Source: Eledone cirrhosa (taxonomy: Eukaryota). Taken from it: a stretch of 64,000 nt of DNA. The notes under the pieces are model-generated. The model was given only the letters and a program-made list of their open reading frames with translations. It was not told where the DNA came from and did no database searches. Positions 3,731-57,690 of this stretch are shown one piece after another. The translations under genes were made by a program, and so were the position numbers. The DNA is taken from NCBI GenBank assembly GCA_964016885.1, contig OZ024762.1, positions 5,642,001 through 5,706,000 of the forward strand, in the 5' to 3' direction. Each line of letters starts with the position of its first letter. The stretch's first letter is position 1.

Positions 3731-3732
<2 letters not shown>

Positions 3733-3959
3733 CGAAGGAAATGTGGTAAGGAACCAGGTGGACCATAAAGCACCAAAGTACTCAATACTTAGGGTAGTAG
3801 AGTGGGTAATAGGAACGAGTGGGTAATAGGAACGAGTAGGACCCCGACGGCTGAGCTCAAGCCGTTTTGACGGCTAATTCTGGACTAAATTTAGTCTAGA
3901 TTTAGTCCAGAATTAGCCGTCGAAACGGCTTGAGCTCAGCCGTCGGGGTCCTACTCGTT

Positions 3960-3962
<3 letters not shown>
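3731..3962 (-). mobile_element. Family A PLE-like terminal remnant: fold-back palindrome between (TA)n tracts
   Basis: Arms AGGAACGAGTAGGACCCCGACGGCTGAGCTCAAGCCG and its reverse complement, plus a one-sided tail containing TTGAGTACT; (TA)n on both sides. Confidence 0.7.
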
Positions 3963-3996
<34 letters not shown>

Positions 3997-11149: not shown

Positions 11150-11187
<38 letters not shown>

Positions 11188-11479
11188 GAGACAAAGCTTA
11201 TCGGATAGAATGGACACAGCTTCAGTTGTTTACTCACTCAATAATCTAATTAAGTCCCTGTTATTAGAATTCAAACCCAACTGGTTAGAGTGTACACATA
11301 TGTTAATCAGTGAGGAAGACCACTTTGTGTGGGTAAGAAATTTGAGATACCCGGACTGATGCACCAGTTTCTATGATTCCAATCTACAGGCAGTGGTCCG
11401 GATGGAATCACTATGTGCAGAAATTAGGTAATGTATGCGTTATGTATGTTGGCAGGAACCGTATTATCAGAAAGAGTTC

Positions 11480-12173
11480 CTCTCCCTGTAATAGAAAGTT
11501 CCAATGGCATACTAGTACATCATGTTGCTGGACACAAGTGAATGTAGTAATATTTATCAGCTTTCAGTGACGTGTAATGTCACATCAAAGAGAAGATAAG
11601 CCAGGCCTGACCATTTACAGAGAACACATGTTGGTGTTGATTCAAATTGAAAAAAATTACCATGCCAGAAGCACTCTGCCAAGTATGCAACAGGCAAACA
11701 GAAATAACAAAGCAAACGACAGTACAACAAAGAAATATATTATTAGTTTTATGCTTGATATAGTAGAAAAAGACTTAACATTTCAGAGCATTGAAGAACA
11801 AATAAATATCTTGCAGAGATTATGTAACAGTAACTGCCTAAATACAAGATCTGATTTCTATAATCGCTGTCCCCATGCAGCCAAATATGTATTACATAAC
11901 TAGAAAGACCCAGACTAATTTCATCTGTTGGGGACCCAACCTGTTTGTATCCAGACGATCTCAATCACCAGTCTAACTTGAGTTAATTCCCTTGTCAATG
12001 AACTCGTGCATGACCGACGTTCTTCATATAGCCTTCTGTTTTTCGGCAATAAACCATTCAGTCAAGCGGGAAGATCTGCAAGGTGAAACGTGTATCATTA
12101 ACAAAGGTTAATTAACTATTGTGGAACTAACCTCTATCGGACTGAGTGCTCTACTACTATGGATATAACTTCT
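11480..12173 (+). mobile_element. Decayed Neptune-type Penelope-like element 3' end (GIY-YIG C-terminus, 3' UTR, decayed hammerhead, tail into (TA)n)
   Basis: EEQINILQRLCNSNCLNTRSDFYNRCPHAAKYVLHN* resembles the Neptune C-terminus (E...I...LN.RSE....C.H..K..L.N*). GGAAGA-TC..GGT-GAAAcgtgTA at about 12069-12096, CTGAGTGCT at 12142, (TA)n from 12174. Confidence 0.65.
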
Positions 12174-16361: not shown

Positions 16362-16364
<3 letters not shown>

Positions 16365-16554
16365 CGAAGGAGTTGTGGTATGGAAACAGATGGACCATAA
16401 CGCACCAGAGTACTCAATACTTAGGGTAGTAGAGTGGGTAATAGGAAAATGTATGACCCCGACGGCAGAGCTCAAGCCGTTTCGACAGCTTTTTCTGGAC
16501 CAGAAATAGCCATCGAAACGGCTTGAGCTCTGCCGTCGGGGTCATACATTTTCC
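16362..16554 (-). mobile_element. Family A palindromic remnant between (TA)n tracts
   Basis: Homologous to 3731-3962; arms AGGAAAATGTATGACCCCGACGGCAGAGCTCAAGCCGTTTCGA and its reverse complement. Confidence 0.7.
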
Positions 16555-16863
16555 TATATATATATATATATAAATATATATAATTATATAGCTCTATAGC
16601 ATACATAGAGCACTCTCCTTTCCGATACCCTTCCTACGGAAACACTTCATATATATATATCATCATCACCATTTTACGTCGGTACTTCCACGCTAGCATG
16701 GGTTAGACAGGTTCTCCTGTTGCGAACAGTGTCCGGTTGGCTGACCTTGTCTTGCTCATACGGGAACTGATTCTGGCTTGATTTCTACAGCTGGATGCCC
16801 TTCCTAACACCAACACACACACACACACACACAGACGCACACACACACACACATATATATATA

Positions 16864-32526: not shown

Positions 32527-32528
<2 letters not shown>

Positions 32529-32723
32529 CGAAGGAATTGTAGTAAGGAACCAGATGGACCATAACACACCAAAGTACTCAATACTTAGGGTAGTAGAGTG
32601 GGTAATATGAACGGGTAGGACCCCGACGGCTGAGCTCAAGCCGTTTCGACGGCTATTTCTGGAAATAGTCCAGAAATAGCCGTCGAAACAGCTTGAGCTC
32701 AGCCGTCGGGGTCCTACTTGTTC

Positions 32724-32725
<2 letters not shown>
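32527..32725 (-). mobile_element. Family A palindromic remnant
   Basis: Homologous to 3731-3962; flanked by (TA)n. Confidence 0.7.
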
Positions 32726-32786
<61 letters not shown>

Positions 32787-32789
<3 letters not shown>

Positions 32790-32947
32790 CGGGTAGGACC
32801 CCGACGGCTGAGCTCAAGCCGTTTCGACGGCTATTTCTGGACTCAGCCGTTGGGGTCTTACTTGTTCATATTACCCACTCTACTACCCTAAGTATTGAGT
32901 ACTTTGGTGCGTTATGGTCCATCTGGTTCCTTACCACATTTCCTTTG

Positions 32948-32949
<2 letters not shown>
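32787..32949 (+). mobile_element. Family A palindromic remnant (opposite orientation)
   Basis: Short arm GAACGGGTAGGACCCCGACGGCTGAG, then long arm with TTGAGTACT tail; flanked by (TA)n. Confidence 0.7.
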
Positions 32950-32997
<48 letters not shown>

Positions 32998-33151
32998 AGC
33001 GAGTGTAACTTGGAGTTACTGTAGGTTCACCCGAGTGAGCACTCGATGTCTAGGTTCACTCCAGTGTCGAGGTGTAGAGCTAGACAGAGTGTATTATAGT
33101 GAAAAAAAGATAACAAGGACGATTGGTTACTCCTTCATTACATTTATTAGT

Positions 33152-33238
33152 AGGTGACACGTGTTTCGCCACTGTTCGGCTCAAGGTTCGATCTGTATCG
33201 ACCTGACCTGACTCTGTAATCCACGGCTCGTCAGACCC
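33152..33238 (-). ncRNA. Type I hammerhead ribozyme with enlarged stem II loop
   Basis: GGGT-CTGACGA-GCC[about 55 nt]GGC-GAAA-CACGTG-TC|ACCT: intact core, GUC cleavage triplet, palindromic stem III. Confidence 0.8.
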
Positions 33239-33777
33239 CTTATAATGGTAATGGACGAATAAATATACATGCCGTCTGATAGTGTCAGATGTTCCTATGG
33301 TGGTCAGTGAAGTTTGTTTTGACTGGTGGTTTAATTCATAGGGATGTGTTTTGCCTATAGTGTATGTGGGAGGGGGTGGGTGTGGTGATAAGTTGGTGGG
33401 GTTGGGTCGAAGTGGGTGGCGGTGTGGGGGTGCTGGTTGTCGGTAGACAGTTTGGCTTGTAGATGTGGCTGATTTTTGTGTGTGGTGTGGTGTGGTGTGC
33501 GTGTGGTGTGCGTGTGGTGTGGTGTGGTGTGCGTGTGGTGTGGTGTGGTGTGGTGTTGTTGTTTGTGATAAGGATGAACGGTTGCAGTGTTTGTGGTGGT
33601 GTGATGATTGTGGTCGTGGGTTGTTAAGGGGGCCCAATTCTATAAGGAGATACATATATACACACACGCAGCCTGGCAAATATATTATATATACATACAC
33701 GTGTGTATATATATATAGCCTATGGGGATGGTGGTTGTAAAAACATACTTACACACAGACACACACACATGCGTTGT

Positions 33778-34530
33778 TTAGGGTGGGATGATAGGCGTGG
33801 TATGTGTTGGAGGTGTGGCGATGTGTTTGGTGGTGGTGTGTCTGCAGTTTATTTTGCCTTTCATCCTTACAGGGTCGATAAAATAAAGTACCAGTAATAC
33901 ACTGGGTAATTGATGGCCTTGTGCCAAATGTAGAAACAATTATTATGTCTGGTTTGGCAGTATCGGTAGAGGGTCGGACAACATGCTTTGTAGCACAGAG
34001 TTACGCCCCTTTCTGATCTGAGTTCAAATCCTGCTGAGGTTAACTTTGCTTTTCATCCTTACAGGGTCGATAAAATAAAGTACCAGTAATGTACTGGGTA
34101 ATTGCTGGCCTTGTGCCAAAAACTAGAAACAATTATTATGTCAGATCTTGAGTTTATGGCTGATTTCAATTTAATGATCTCAGCTGCCTCAGCCAGGCAT
34201 AACCTGCAGTGGTTTCTGTCGTTGGGGAGTTGGGCCACGCGTCTTTTAACTGACCATTTGATCTGGTATTCCATGTTCTTGTCTTTGAGGTCCCAGATCA
34301 AGTCCTCCAGTCTTGTTTGGGAGCGTTTTTACCTGTGTCTGAAGGAGCTTTTGTGGTTATGTCAGCACTCCTTGAACGTAGTCGAGGTCGCCCCTATATA
34401 GGAGAACTCTTTTCTGCCAGCTGTGACATCGCACCGGTAAATAATGTTTTTAACGAGGCACTTCCTGTTCAATGGGCATTCTACCCGCTTTTTGCAGTTG
34501 CAGTTGGGGGTTATGGGTTTGTTGTTAGGT
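33778..34530 (-). pseudogene. PLE GIY-YIG endonuclease domain, inactivated
   Basis: CNCKKRVECPLNRKCLVKNIIYRCDVTAGRKEFSYIGATSTTFKEC*HNHKSSFRHR*...IWDLKDKNMEYQIKWSV...CRLCLAE...INSRSDI, then the SINE, then INCRH...; two stops. Confidence 0.85.
33853..34138 (+). mobile_element. tRNA/Nin-type SINE, partial plus full tandem copy, inserted in the PLE ORF
   Basis: TTTGCCTTTCATCCTTACAGGGTCGATAAAATAAAGTACCAG-type core occurs twice; A and B boxes in the second copy. Confidence 0.85.
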
Positions 34531-34544
34531 TAACATCACACTTT

Positions 34545-34872
34545 ACAGTGAACTCTCCACTGGTCATCATGACATGAAGGAAGTGATACAAGGATTATTT
34601 GAAAAATTCTCTTGGTGCCTGTCACATGGACCATCACGCCTGGCATCTTACAATCAACCATGCTGTCTCCTCCTTCGAAAACACCCACAGAGCTACTCTC
34701 AAGGACAAAAGGCACAGGGGGAAGAACCACAACATCAAGTCATCAAACTCTGACCAAACCTGCAGCTACAGCTGTCCCTGCCTGTCCCACATTGATTGGA
34801 ACAGCCACGAGCATGCCTGCAGTCAATGTGGACCACCAACTTCATAATCATGATGATGATGATGATGATGAT
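34545..34872 (+). mobile_element. RTE-like 3' end with decayed zinc finger and (GAT)n tail
   Basis: W..TINHAVSSFE...TCSYSCPCLSHIDWNSHEHACS, then GAT repeats. Confidence 0.55.
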
Positions 34873-35424
34873 ATATGTATGGTCTCATAACTCCCGAGAG
34901 AGTTGTAGAGTGCTGTAGTGACATACAGCATTTCTAGGGGATTTTAAACCTTGTGGAGCCCATCCCCTCCCCAGGTCTGAACACAGTTGATTATTTCCAT
35001 AGAAGGAGAGAGAGAGAGAATGGAAGTAAGCAAGAGATATAGAGAAAGAATCGATCCCAGTATGAGACTGGTACTTTTTTAATGACCTCAAATGGATGAA
35101 AGACGAAGTCGACCTTCGTGGGAATGAAACTCAGAGAGCAGTGAGCTGGAACGAACACTACAAAGCATTCTAACGATTCTGCCAATTAACCACCTTTGTG
35201 TGTAGGTAACAGTAGGTAAATACATAGAAATGTATAAAAAAAGGATTAAAAATCAATAAACAATTCACAACACATGAATTTGATTACACCAATTCATTAT
35301 ATTGATCATAATCAAATTATCTAAATATAACATTAACCCCTTTTGATCCCAACACCGCTCTGGTTCTATGAAACAAAATCATCCATTTAAAAGATTCCTA
35401 TTTAAATTAATGTCTTCTGTGAAT

Positions 35425-45144: not shown

Positions 45145-45201
45145 TAAACAAATAATGAATAAAACAATGAAACAGTTCCTTATATTAAACAAAAAAAGTT
45201 C

Positions 45202-45349
45202 ATTATTTAACGATCGTTTCTAGGATATATATGTGTTAGAATTGGCATGCATATTCAACAGATCTATGTACAAAATTATACAAAATTATACAAACTATCA
45301 AGATTAAATATACATACCAACACATATATACGCCGTCTTCAGAAATAAT
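45202..45349 (-). ncRNA. Mirror-image hammerhead on the left arm
   Basis: Exact reverse complement of 45348-45495. Confidence 0.72.
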
Positions 45350-45495
45350 TATTTCTGAAGACGGCGTATATATGTGTTGGTATGTATATTTAATCTTGAT
45401 AGTTTGTATAATTTTGTATAATTTTGTACATAGATCTGTTGAATATGCATGCCAATTCTAACACATATATATCCTAGAAACGATCGTTAAATAAT
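45348..45495 (+). ncRNA. Type I hammerhead with stem II domain of about 115 nt
   Basis: ATTATTT-CTGAAGA-cggcgTATATATGTGTTGG...CTAACACATATATAtccta-GAAA-CGATCG-TT|AAATAAT: 7-bp stem I, palindromic stem III. Confidence 0.72.
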
Positions 45496-46498
45496 GAACT
45501 TTTTTTGTTTAATATAAGGAACTGTTTCATTGTTTTATTCATTATTTGTTTAATATTTTATCTTGACTCTGTATACCGTTTATCTTTCACCGAAAGTGAT
45601 TTTTCATTACATCTCTTCTTTCCATGATATCTGGAATACATTGAGTTCTTCATACGGATTGGACACTACCGTAAACTCTTGGTAGATTTATCTACATATA
45701 TATATATATATACGTTATTCCGGGTTGAATCGGAGGTAACTACAGTAAGTAAGGTACTCAATACATTGCAGAGTATAAAAGTTTTAATATAGATGAGATT
45801 CTACAGGACTAGAACTGTTTCATTCTTTAGAAATCATCAGGATATATATATACACACCCACACACACTACCAACACAAAAAACAAAATCACCACAACCAC
45901 CACCATCACCATCACCAATACCAACACCACCGCCACTACCACCACCAATACCACCATCACCTTCACCAATACCAACACCACCACCACTACCAACACCACC
46001 GCCACTACCAATACCACCACCATCACCAAAACCAACACCAATACCACCACCACCACCACTACCTCCATTACCACTATGATCACCACCATCACCAAAACCA
46101 ATACCAATACCACCACCACTACCTCCACCACCACCACCACCACCATCATCACCACCATCACCAAAACCAATACCAATACCACCACCACTACCTCCACCAC
46201 CACCACCATCACCATCACCACCACCACCATCATCACCACCATCACCAAAACCAATACCAATACCACCACCACTACCTCCACCACCACCACCATCACCATC
46301 ACCACCACCACCATCATCACCACCATCACCAAAACCCAAACCAATACCACCATCTTTACCACTACCATTACCACTACGTCTATCAAAGCAAGAATATGAC
46401 ATTGAAATTATGTGTTGATCATGCGCAATGGATGTTAGTAGTAGATATTATAGTAACAGACGATACACAGCCGTCTCTTCCTGCTTACACATACTCAC

Positions 46499-54334: not shown

Positions 54335-54339
<5 letters not shown>

Positions 54340-54466
54340 ATAGCTGTCGAAACGGCTTGAGCTCTGCCGTCGGGGTCATACTTTTTCCTATTACCCACTC
54401 TATTACCCTGAGTATTGAGTACTCTGGTGCGTTATGGTCCATCTGGTTCCTTACCACAACTCCTTC

Positions 54467-54470
<4 letters not shown>
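54335..54470 (+). mobile_element. Family A remnant, single arm between (TA)n tracts
   Basis: CAGAAATAGCTGTCGAAACGGCTTGAGCTC...TTGAGTACTCTGGTGCG...CCTTCGTT(TA)n. Confidence 0.7.
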
Positions 54471-55109: not shown

Positions 55110-55165
<56 letters not shown>

Positions 55166-55195
55166 TATTAATAAAAATAGATGTTCTTTTGATCA

Positions 55196-55258
55196 ATTAC
55201 ATTTTATTATACATATTTCGGATGTACAACAGTACGTCCTCATCAGACAAAATATAAT
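55196..55258 (-). ncRNA. Hammerhead on the left arm (family C)
   Basis: Reverse complement of 55349-55411 with one difference at the stem II loop. Confidence 0.75.
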
Positions 55259-55348
55259 GATACATGACATACCCTGAGATGTTAAATGGTTAAGATTAAA
55301 TCTTGATTAAATCTTAACCATTTAACATCTCAGGGTATGTCATGTATC

Positions 55349-55411
55349 ATTATATTTTGTCTGATGAGGACGTACTGTTTTACATCCGAAATATGTATAA
55401 TAAAATGTAAT
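55349..55411 (+). ncRNA. Type I hammerhead ribozyme (family C)
   Basis: ATTATATTTTGT-CTGATGA-GGACGTA ctgttt TACATCC-GAAA-tatgta-TA|ATAAAATGTAAT: 12-bp stem I including G-U pairs. Confidence 0.78.
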
Positions 55412-55551
55412 TGATCAAAAGAACATCTATTTTTATTAATACTTATATTAATAACTCCTGAAAATTATATATATTTCGTTGAGTGCTTCCAATCTACTGT
55501 AAAACTCATTCTTTGACATACTCATCGAATATTGTTTAACAACTTAATACT

Positions 55552-55616
<65 letters not shown>

Positions 55617-57181: not shown

Positions 57182-57384
57182 CGAAGGAAAAGTGGTAAGG
57201 AACCAGGTGGACCATAACGCACCAAAGTACTCAATACTTAGGGTAGGAGAGTGGGTAATAGGAGTAAGTAAGACCCCGACGGCTGAGCTCAAGCCGTTTC
57301 GACGGCTAATTCTGTACTGAATTAGCCGAGTACAGAATTAGCCGTCGAAACGGCTTGAGCTCAGCCGTCGGGGTCTTACTTACT

Positions 57385-57388
<4 letters not shown>
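57181..57388 (-). mobile_element. Family A palindromic remnant
   Basis: Homologous to 3731-3962. Confidence 0.7.
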
Positions 57389-57449
<61 letters not shown>

Positions 57450-57453
<4 letters not shown>

Positions 57454-57690
57454 ATGTTTAACCCCGACGGCAGAGCTCAAGCCGTTTCGACGGCTATTTC
57501 AGGACTAAATTAGATGGGGCTATTTATTTACCACGCTAAAAATCTAATATAGTCCAGAAATAGCCGTCGAAACGGCTTGAGCTCTGCCGTCGGGGTTAAA
57601 CATTTTCCTATTTCGCACTCTACTACCCTAAGTATTGAGTACTCTGGTGCGTTTTGGTCCATCTGGTTGCTTACCACACCTCCTTCGTTT
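57450..57690 (+). mobile_element. Family A palindromic remnant with the longest central region
   Basis: GACGGCTATTTCAGGACTAAATTAGAT[26 nt]ATCTAATATAGTCCAGAAATAGCCGTCGAAAC; TTGAGTACT tail; (TA)n flanks. Confidence 0.7.

What the first reader, a model, noticed from the sequence alone, without database searches (positions are those of the whole stretch)
32996..34532. Key locus linking a Neptune-type GIY-YIG ORF to the ribozyme, tail motif and (TA)n junction
Seen, reading minus: a CxC..C..C cluster, IIY...YIG, IW.LK, C.LCL.E, then NSRSDI/NCRH rejoined across a SINE insertion, a stop, 3' UTR, an intact GUC hammerhead, TCGAGTGCTC and (TA)n. A second, more decayed example (11480-12173, +) has the same order. 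Established: this Cys-rich GIY-YIG pattern is typical of Neptune-group PLEs. Inference: such elements are the source of the orphan palindromes.
Basis: partly seen in the sequence, partly recalled or inferred. Interest (0 to 1): 0.7.

Follow-up and report, generated by a model that had tools for sequence, protein, structure and literature searches.

The report
Hydra retroelement lineage outlives its ribozyme
This is a broken, shortened copy of a known kind of animal jumping gene (Hydra group, not Neptune) whose predicted self-cutting RNA motif has all its core letters, while the family's more numerous and likely younger copies changed two normally fixed letters of that motif and kept spreading, which suggests the cutting is not needed.

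Summary
The locus is real: a 5'-truncated, dead Penelope-like element (endonuclease, two inserted SINEs, 3'UTR, type I hammerhead, tail, (TA)n). It is Hydra clade, not Neptune: a full-length relative (861 aa) has RWR, DKT, CxCX5C, CxxC/CxH and no CCHH. The hammerhead follows the ORF in 33 of 40 copies. The second example is a chimera; only 11788-12172 is PLE (another Hydra family, decayed core). This family has no other copy in the window; the main palindromes are 3' ends of a third Hydra family (59,215 exact matches genome-wide). TCGAGTGCTC is the 3' arm of a covarying bulged hairpin, which this scan already noted on other DNA of this genome. Not seen in the papers or scan notes I searched: along one ladder-like lineage the core went CUGACGA > CCGACGA > CCGUCGA (465 versus 1,117 exact matches), and the endonuclease stayed under purifying selection afterwards (pN/pS 0.16). 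This suggests canonical cleavage is dispensable in vivo, against the published statement that Hydra elements universally carry canonical hammerheads. Cleavage is untested and the tree has no outgroup.

The parts
34134..34529 (-). 5'-truncated Hydra-type GIY-YIG endonuclease coding fragment (CxCX5C linker, Y..C/YIG, CxxC-E-N), two in-frame stops
   Evidence: (78% to residues 703-831 of full-length P0002)
33854..34131 (.). two tandem SINE copies (one ~180 nt, one truncated) inserted in the ORF end; GACATAATAAT at 34142-34132 and 33949-33939
33838..33853 (-). resumed ORF end (INCRH, the Hydra CxH motif), followed by an internal deletion that removed the native stop
33239..33837 (-). CA-rich 3' UTR, shortened by the deletion
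33152..33238 (-). type I hammerhead: 4-bp stem I, canonical CUGACGA (33234-33228), ~60-nt stem II arm, GAAA (33167), 2-bp stem III with palindromic loop, GUC site (C17 33156); predicted to need a dimer
33095..33099 (-). internal TATA at which 18 of 40 relatives end (first of two preferred 3' ends)
32996..33036 (-). tail up to the second preferred 3' end (15 of 40 relatives), CTGG/ATAT
32949..32995 (.). (TA)n target
32528..32948 (.). two fold-back insertions of a different Hydra family (H3): 134-nt 3' ends that start inside hammerhead stem II; same family at 3732-3964, 16364-16557, 54335-54468, 57182-57688
11788..12172 (+). 3' end of a second, decayed Hydra family (H2): last ~40 codons, 3'UTR, dead hammerhead, broken hairpin, then (TA)n
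11183..11683 (.). unrelated, apparently non-coding repeat with a (TA)n-abutting left end; not part of the H2 ORF

Best explanation
The locus is a dead, 5'-truncated copy of a Hydra-clade Penelope-like retrotransposon from an older wave of its family, likely made by target-primed reverse transcription into a (TA)n run, and the family's likely younger lineage kept transposing after its hammerhead core changed at two normally fixed positions. Shown: element anatomy, clade motifs, linkage of ORF to hammerhead and tail, two preferred 3' ends, frequent head-to-head pairs, three core states mapping onto the endonuclease tree with the minimum 3 changes, and purifying selection on the endonuclease within the changed-core lineage. 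Inferred mechanism: the RT-EN protein nicks (TA)n, binds its RNA near the bulged hairpin and starts copying at one of two internal TA-like sites 7-8 nt upstream of a hairpin-like motif. Early termination gives short 3' ends, and priming from both sides of the break gives palindromes. Hammerhead cleavage, which here would need a dimer through the palindromic stem III, is probably not a required step. The 42-nt block holding the hammerhead's 3' half is probably kept for its role at the 5' end of the transcript or in the pLTR promoter.
For: Clade: P0002 has LWRA (RIRWRA in L032), ADKT, CNCKKRAEC, CRLC, CRH, IKDHK; no CX2-5CxxC, GxKF/Y or PKIHK (definitions). Of its 24 homologs over 600 aa, 24 have DK[TS], 0 ADKG, 23 CxCX5-7C. 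Linkage 33 of 40. 3' ends 18 + 15 of 40 at two sites; adjacent inverted copy 18 of 40; pLTR directly upstream of the ORF in L031 and L033. Core states: 465 vs 1,117 exact matches, controls 0. Tree of 81 endonuclease rows, 49 labelled: U 10, intermediate 4, C 34, one CUGUCGA; 3 changes against a shuffled mean of 14.3; median tip length 0.046, 0.041, 0.020, U vs C p=9e-5. Early-C to last-C majority sequences: 28 synonymous and 17 nonsynonymous changes, pN/pS 0.16, p=4e-9. No other conserved CUGANGA lies near the C-lineage hammerhead. Published: hammerhead mutants do not affect insertion in vitro for Poseidon_Ac (PMC11167929); U4C lowers activity in vitro (PMC3088659).
Against: No cleavage or transposition assay. 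The tree has no outgroup; direction rests on tip lengths, which shorten with denser sampling (C rows outnumber U rows), on a weak independent sample (mean distance to group majority 0.075 vs 0.058, n=20 each, not tested) and on all listed Hydra cores being canonical. 31 of 81 rows had no readable core and 1 was unclassifiable. GAAA (86 of 94) and the UC site (85 of 94) stay conserved and a 42-nt block covering GAAA, stem III and GUC is invariant across all six age groups, which fits a ribozyme still in use. U4C alone is tolerated in a viroid in vivo. The second hairpin before the ORF has only one inner pair in this lineage (21 matches). No tree with named Hydra and Neptune references was built.
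Confidence: 0.72

Rival explanations
1. The CCGUCGA form is a still-active natural core variant (U4C plus A6U), slow or protein-assisted, so cleavage remains part of the cycle.
For: GAAA, palindromic stem III, GUC and stem I are retained. The change came in two steps and then stayed fixed through about 28 synonymous changes in the endonuclease. Natural variants with low activity exist, including U4C and A6C. The Poseidon hammerhead cleaves only with its protein.
Against: Two core positions are hit at once, and the 5' strands of stems I and II drift in the same lineage while the 3' block does not. Family H3 also has a non-canonical core (CUGAGAA in 27 of 37), and 27 of the 29 copies printed show no sequence upstream of stem II.
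Confidence: 0.2
2. C-core copies were cut or mobilised in trans by canonical-core partners, for example a mixed dimer through the shared CGCG stem III, so the lineage never did without a ribozyme.
For: The stem III palindrome is shared by both forms (70 of 94 CGCGCG). Both forms coexist in the genome.
Against: C-core copies carry their own endonuclease under purifying selection. No short-tipped U-core copy was found among 10 labelled, although the query was itself a U-type copy.
Confidence: 0.06
3. The element is a Neptune-group PLE, as first read.
For: Cys-rich linker, C-terminal endonuclease, hammerhead and microsatellite target are shared with Neptune.
Against: No CX2-5CxxC, no CCHH, DKT instead of DKG, IKDHK instead of PKIHK.
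Confidence: 0.02

Closest known systems
Hydra clade of C-terminal EN+ PLEs (Craig et al. 2021, PMC8557442; I read Results part 1 of 4, sections 11, 12, 15, and supplement parts 2 and 53 plus search passages), including Hydra-1_Obim from Octopus bimaculoides
   Same: RW[K/R], DKT, CxCX5C, no CCHH, CxxC and CxH around E and N, hammerhead in the 3' pLTR, (TA)n target, inverted truncated copies.
   Different: A different family from Hydra-1_Obim (its listed hammerhead differs). Longer: ORF about 857 aa and endonuclease-to-core distance 0.85-1.2 kb in most U copies, 1.2-2.8 kb in most C copies, against 'generally <3 kb'. Stem II arm about 60 nt. The dominant lineage has CCGUCGA, whereas every Hydra core in File S2 is CUGANGA and the paper says canonical hammerheads are universal in Hydra.
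Minimal/dimeric PLE hammerheads (Cervera and de la Pena 2014, PMC4209133; parts 1-2 of 4 read)
   Same: Type I, short stem I, long stem II, tiny palindromic stem III; predicted dimer; mostly solitary copies. The U3-A8 variant they describe is seen in family H2 relatives.
   Different: They describe U3-A8 covariation; a fixed U4C plus A6U core is not in the parts I read.
Poseidon_Ac in vitro system (Frangieh et al. 2024, PMC11167929; parts 1-2 of 4 read)
   Same: Two internal RT start sites that define the tail, AT-rich nicking on both strands, hammerhead cleavage not needed for insertion in vitro.
   Different: Other clade. Its start sites lie in an AC-rich stem-loop inside the ORF; here the two ends are ~100 nt apart, upstream of the ORF, each before a bulged hairpin motif.
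Neptune PLEs (as characterised in PMC8557442)
   Same: C-terminal GIY-YIG, Cys-rich linker, microsatellite bias.
   Different: Neptune has CX2-5CxxC, CCHH and DKG; none is present here.

Membership tests
Hydra-clade PLE | single ORF, RT followed by C-terminal GIY-YIG | tested here: met
   L031 861-aa open frame, YRDD then YIG
Hydra-clade PLE | RWK motif; GxKF/Y not conserved | tested here: met
   LWRA in P0002, RIRWRA in L032 (R for K); no GxK[FY]
Hydra-clade PLE | DKG changed to DKT | tested here: met
   ADKT at residue 123
Hydra-clade PLE | CxCX5C linker | tested here: met
   CNCKKRVEC in the window, CNCKKRAEC in P0002
Hydra-clade PLE | CCHH absent; CxxC and CxH flanking the conserved E and N | tested here: met
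   the only CxxC is CRLC (806); CRH at 833
Hydra-clade PLE | (TA)n insertion preference | tested here: met
   39 of 40 pattern-picked copies have (TA)n within 310 nt downstream, 33 at two fixed ends
Hydra-clade PLE | canonical hammerhead in the pLTR | tested here: met
   met for the window copy and the U lineage; not met by the C lineage
Hydra-clade PLE | generally shorter than 3 kb | tested here: not met
   ORF alone 2.6 kb plus 1-2.8 kb to the hammerhead; a tendency in the paper, not a diagnostic
Hydra-clade PLE | placement in the Hydra RT clade with named references | not tested
   reference proteins were compared by eye only
Neptune PLE | CX2-5CxxC linker | tested here: not met
   no match in P0002
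Neptune PLE | CCHH motif with two Cys inside the GIY-YIG core | tested here: not met
   single Cys between IVY and YIG
Naiad PLE | N-terminal endonuclease | tested here: not met
   endonuclease is C-terminal
Type I dimeric hammerhead ribozyme | CUGANGA, GAAA, UH core with stems I-III | tested here: met
Type I dimeric hammerhead ribozyme | self-cleavage | not testable with these tools
   needs an assay

The most novel reading that the evidence does not exclude
An autonomous Hydra retrotransposon lineage switched off its hammerhead in two steps and then produced most of the family's copies, while the ribozyme's 3' half was kept as a promoter or RNA-binding signal beside a clade-wide bulged hairpin that sets the copying start. 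With H3, whose tens of thousands of copies mostly carry half a ribozyme, this would be genomic evidence that PLE hammerheads are passengers rather than required parts.
Probability: 0.5. Interest if true: 0.6.

Novelty: new variant of a known kind. Interest (0 to 1): 0.42.

Why it matters
The role of hammerheads in Penelope-like elements is an open question: PMC8557442 calls it unclear and raises the idea that they are parasitic, and PMC11167929 finds them unnecessary in vitro for one element. This family offers a dated series of three natural alleles (CUGACGA, CCGACGA, CCGUCGA) in one sequence background, with evidence that the last was carried by a self-propagating element. Either outcome of a cleavage assay is informative: dispensability in vivo, or a new working core. 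The locus itself is an ordinary dead copy; re-labelling it from Neptune to Hydra is an annotation fix.

Tried and rejected
Rfam found no hammerhead in the window list shown or in 33000-33450. Pfam gave no family for the fragment or the full protein; no meaningful solved-structure match. No RNA holder listed; laying three unlabelled contig runs on the locus gave nothing usable. A search for a CUGAYGA core just upstream of the H3 short unit gave 7 unrelated hits; the H3 core turned out to be CUGAGAA, further upstream. My first core labelling missed many rows and was redone by alignment. The palindrome family at 55160-55560 was not linked to an ORF: 1 Hydra-like hit in 30 loci, not examined further. 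Seven metagenome loci gave no strict hairpin match; L283 has a near match. The reading of 11480-11683 as a Cys-rich endonuclease was rejected. Naiad was rejected on domain order. Paper searches and scan look-ups showed no report of a CCGUCGA core in a PLE; the library lacks most subscription journals, and I did not see Repbase or Dfam.

Full report
What is in the window. Read on the minus strand, 34529-34134 encodes 132 residues with two stops. A profile built from related proteins hits 34532-34128 at E 2e-42. Two tandem SINE copies interrupt the last codons, with GACATAATAAT on both sides of the first. After INCRH an internal deletion removes the native ORF end and part of the 3'UTR. Then come a CA-rich UTR, a type I hammerhead (33238-33152), a tail, and (TA)n from 32995. 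The window lies at G000:C23:5642001-5706000 in a 3.0-Gb assembly. The host is likely an octopod: the best named homolog is from Argonauta hians, and the SINE looks like octopus repeats from my recall.

Clade. The fragment has 150 scored matches among 54,634 first-look candidates; the candidates include other families. L031 holds an 861-aa open frame with RT then endonuclease, preceded by a pLTR and an inverted 5'-truncated copy ending in (TA)n. Craig et al. (PMC8557442, section 11) define Hydra by RWK, DKT, CxCX5C, no CCHH, CxxC and CxH around E and N, a hammerhead and (TA)n targets. All the protein marks are present and the Neptune marks are absent. By eye the RT matches Hydra rows (DKT, IKDHK) and not Neptune rows (DKGG, PKIHK) of their Figure S7. 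A Hydra family is already listed for Octopus bimaculoides, with a different hammerhead. I built no tree with named references. Pfam and PDB gave nothing.

Linkage. I took 40 endonuclease matches in rank order after the first 30, skipping those already fetched, without regard to the hammerhead. 33 of 40 have the hammerhead segment downstream on the same strand within 3 kb. The converse is rare: of 40 copies picked by hammerhead pattern, 2 carry this family's ORF within 3.5 kb, so most copies are short 3' ends. Their ends fall at two sites about 100 nt apart (18 and 15 of 40; 7 elsewhere), and 18 of 40 have an adjacent inverted copy. Two start sites and a one-sided tail match the Poseidon_Ac experiments (PMC11167929).

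The hammerhead. The window copy has every core letter, but stem III is two pairs with a palindromic loop; the forced fold is -16.1 against -26.1 kcal/mol for the free fold, while two copies pair through the palindrome at -10.9. This is the dimer-type design of PMC4209133. Activity is predicted, not shown.

The core changed in the family. Among 94 hammerhead segments the cores are mostly CUGA[C/U]GA or CCGUCGA, with 5 CCGACGA. Exact 21-base patterns give 465 and 1,117 matches genome-wide with 0 in controls. On a tree of 81 endonuclease sequences, 49 with a classified core, the states need the minimum 3 changes (shuffled mean 14.3, 0 of 200 as low) and run in a ladder: canonical, CCGACGA, CCGUCGA. 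Median tip lengths are 0.046, 0.041 and 0.020. Within the CCGUCGA part, group majorities differ by 28 synonymous and 17 nonsynonymous changes over 80 and 292 sites (pN/pS 0.16, p=4e-9); each of the five steps gives 0.09-0.14 (one gapped row dropped). So the changed-core element encoded a working protein over a long series of source copies. Caveats: no outgroup; tip length depends on sampling; 31 rows had no readable core; one row (CUGUCGA) sits near the base of the C part; single copies against their group majority give pN/pS 0.23-0.62, so the groups still contain internal branches. Against simple loss of function, a 42-nt block from late stem II through GUC is identical in all six age groups. 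That block lies in the part that also stands upstream of the ORF: the L031 pLTR and 3 of 30 copies picked by the 3' half begin at about GAGTC, just before it. A promoter or 5'-UTR role would explain the conservation; this is inference. PMC3088659 (passages) reports that U4C lowers activity in vitro but is tolerated in a viroid, and that A6C has low activity.

The tail motif. TCGAGTGCTC is the 3' side of a hairpin: RCUC, inner stem, loop, inner stem, 2-nt bulge, GAGY, RCUY. It occurs 9 times in the window against 0.23 in shuffles (the pattern was defined after seeing examples). Anchoring on GAGnnCTY 25-70 nt before (TA)n without asking for a stem, 11 of 34 clusters have it in at least half their members against 1.4 expected, with the outer pair A-U in 8, G-C in 3 and never mismatched. 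By eye the published Hydra-2_Amil, Hydra-1_Ajap and Hydra-2_Ajap sequences have it; the Hydra-1_Obim 3' end stops before it. I reached this, which showed that several earlier notes of this scan describe the same hairpin and add that it comes in pairs, each just after an end site. In this family both ends lie 7-8 nt before such a motif, but the second one has the outer stem, bulge and GAGCGCUU with only one inner pair. That is partial agreement.

Second example and palindromes. The 11480-12173 stretch joins two repeats. The right part is the 3' end of another Hydra family whose relatives have CSCRKPEAC and LYRDDGL; its hammerhead core is decayed here, and relatives often show the known U3-A8 form. 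The left part shows no coding signal. The tail of locus 1 has no other match in the window. The most frequent palindromes (five sites, 11 arms by pattern) are 134-nt units that start inside stem II of a hammerhead; longer copies lead to a third Hydra ORF. One 22-base pattern of that family has 59,215 matches, against 1,863 for the family studied here. Its core is CUGAGAA in 27 of 37.

Verdict. The locus is an ordinary dead Hydra copy, and the clade and the second example need correcting. The family-level change of the hammerhead core is real in sequence, absent from the papers and scan notes I searched, and directly testable. bioRxiv 10.64898/2026.07.22.740005 was seen as abstract only, PMC13282606 as passages only.

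Noticed in passing
window 34131-33854; L005, L006, L085: The same SINE sits at the same ORF position in 4 of 10 copies whose site reads GACATAATAAT and in 0 of 56 with other spellings (one false positive dropped). Insert lengths differ, which suggests a targeted (AAT)n hot spot; a Dong/R4-type LINE as driver is recalled, not tested.
   Followed up: partly
L032 2567-3004: Family H3 sequence is fused to this family's ORF at a GAC microhomology, behind an inverted H3 arm; one possible template jump between two Hydra RNAs.
   Followed up: no
L186-L215; window 32528-32726: Short H3 copies have a sharp 5' boundary at TTAGTCC in the loop of stem II, resembling an initiator element (recalled); they may be full copies of a short RNA from the pLTR promoter (the query selected for this unit).
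   Followed up: partly
EN-selected loci: The distance from endonuclease to hammerhead grows from about 1.0 kb in canonical-core copies to about 2.2 kb in late CCGUCGA copies, apparently by internal duplication in the 3' UTR.
   Followed up: no
window 34530-34880: Plus strand ends in a Cys/His motif and an (ATG)n run, like the 3' end of an RTE-type LINE (recalled), head-to-head with the truncated PLE.
   Followed up: no
window 11183-11683: A dispersed, apparently non-coding repeat ending at (TA)n; its majority sequence has CUGAUGA on the minus strand. It might be one of the rearranged-hammerhead elements in earlier scan notes.
   Followed up: partly
window 5710, 55361/55246, 52400: Three further canonical-looking hammerheads of other families; the 55160-55560 one is a fold-back with a tail hairpin variant.
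   Followed up: partly
window 45198-45499: A perfect 302-bp palindrome without a recognised hammerhead.
   Followed up: no
window 33175-33110 (minus strand): The conserved block and its 3' flank contain GGCGAAA, CGCGTCAC-like and CCAAT-like words that resemble promoter sites (recalled).
   Followed up: no
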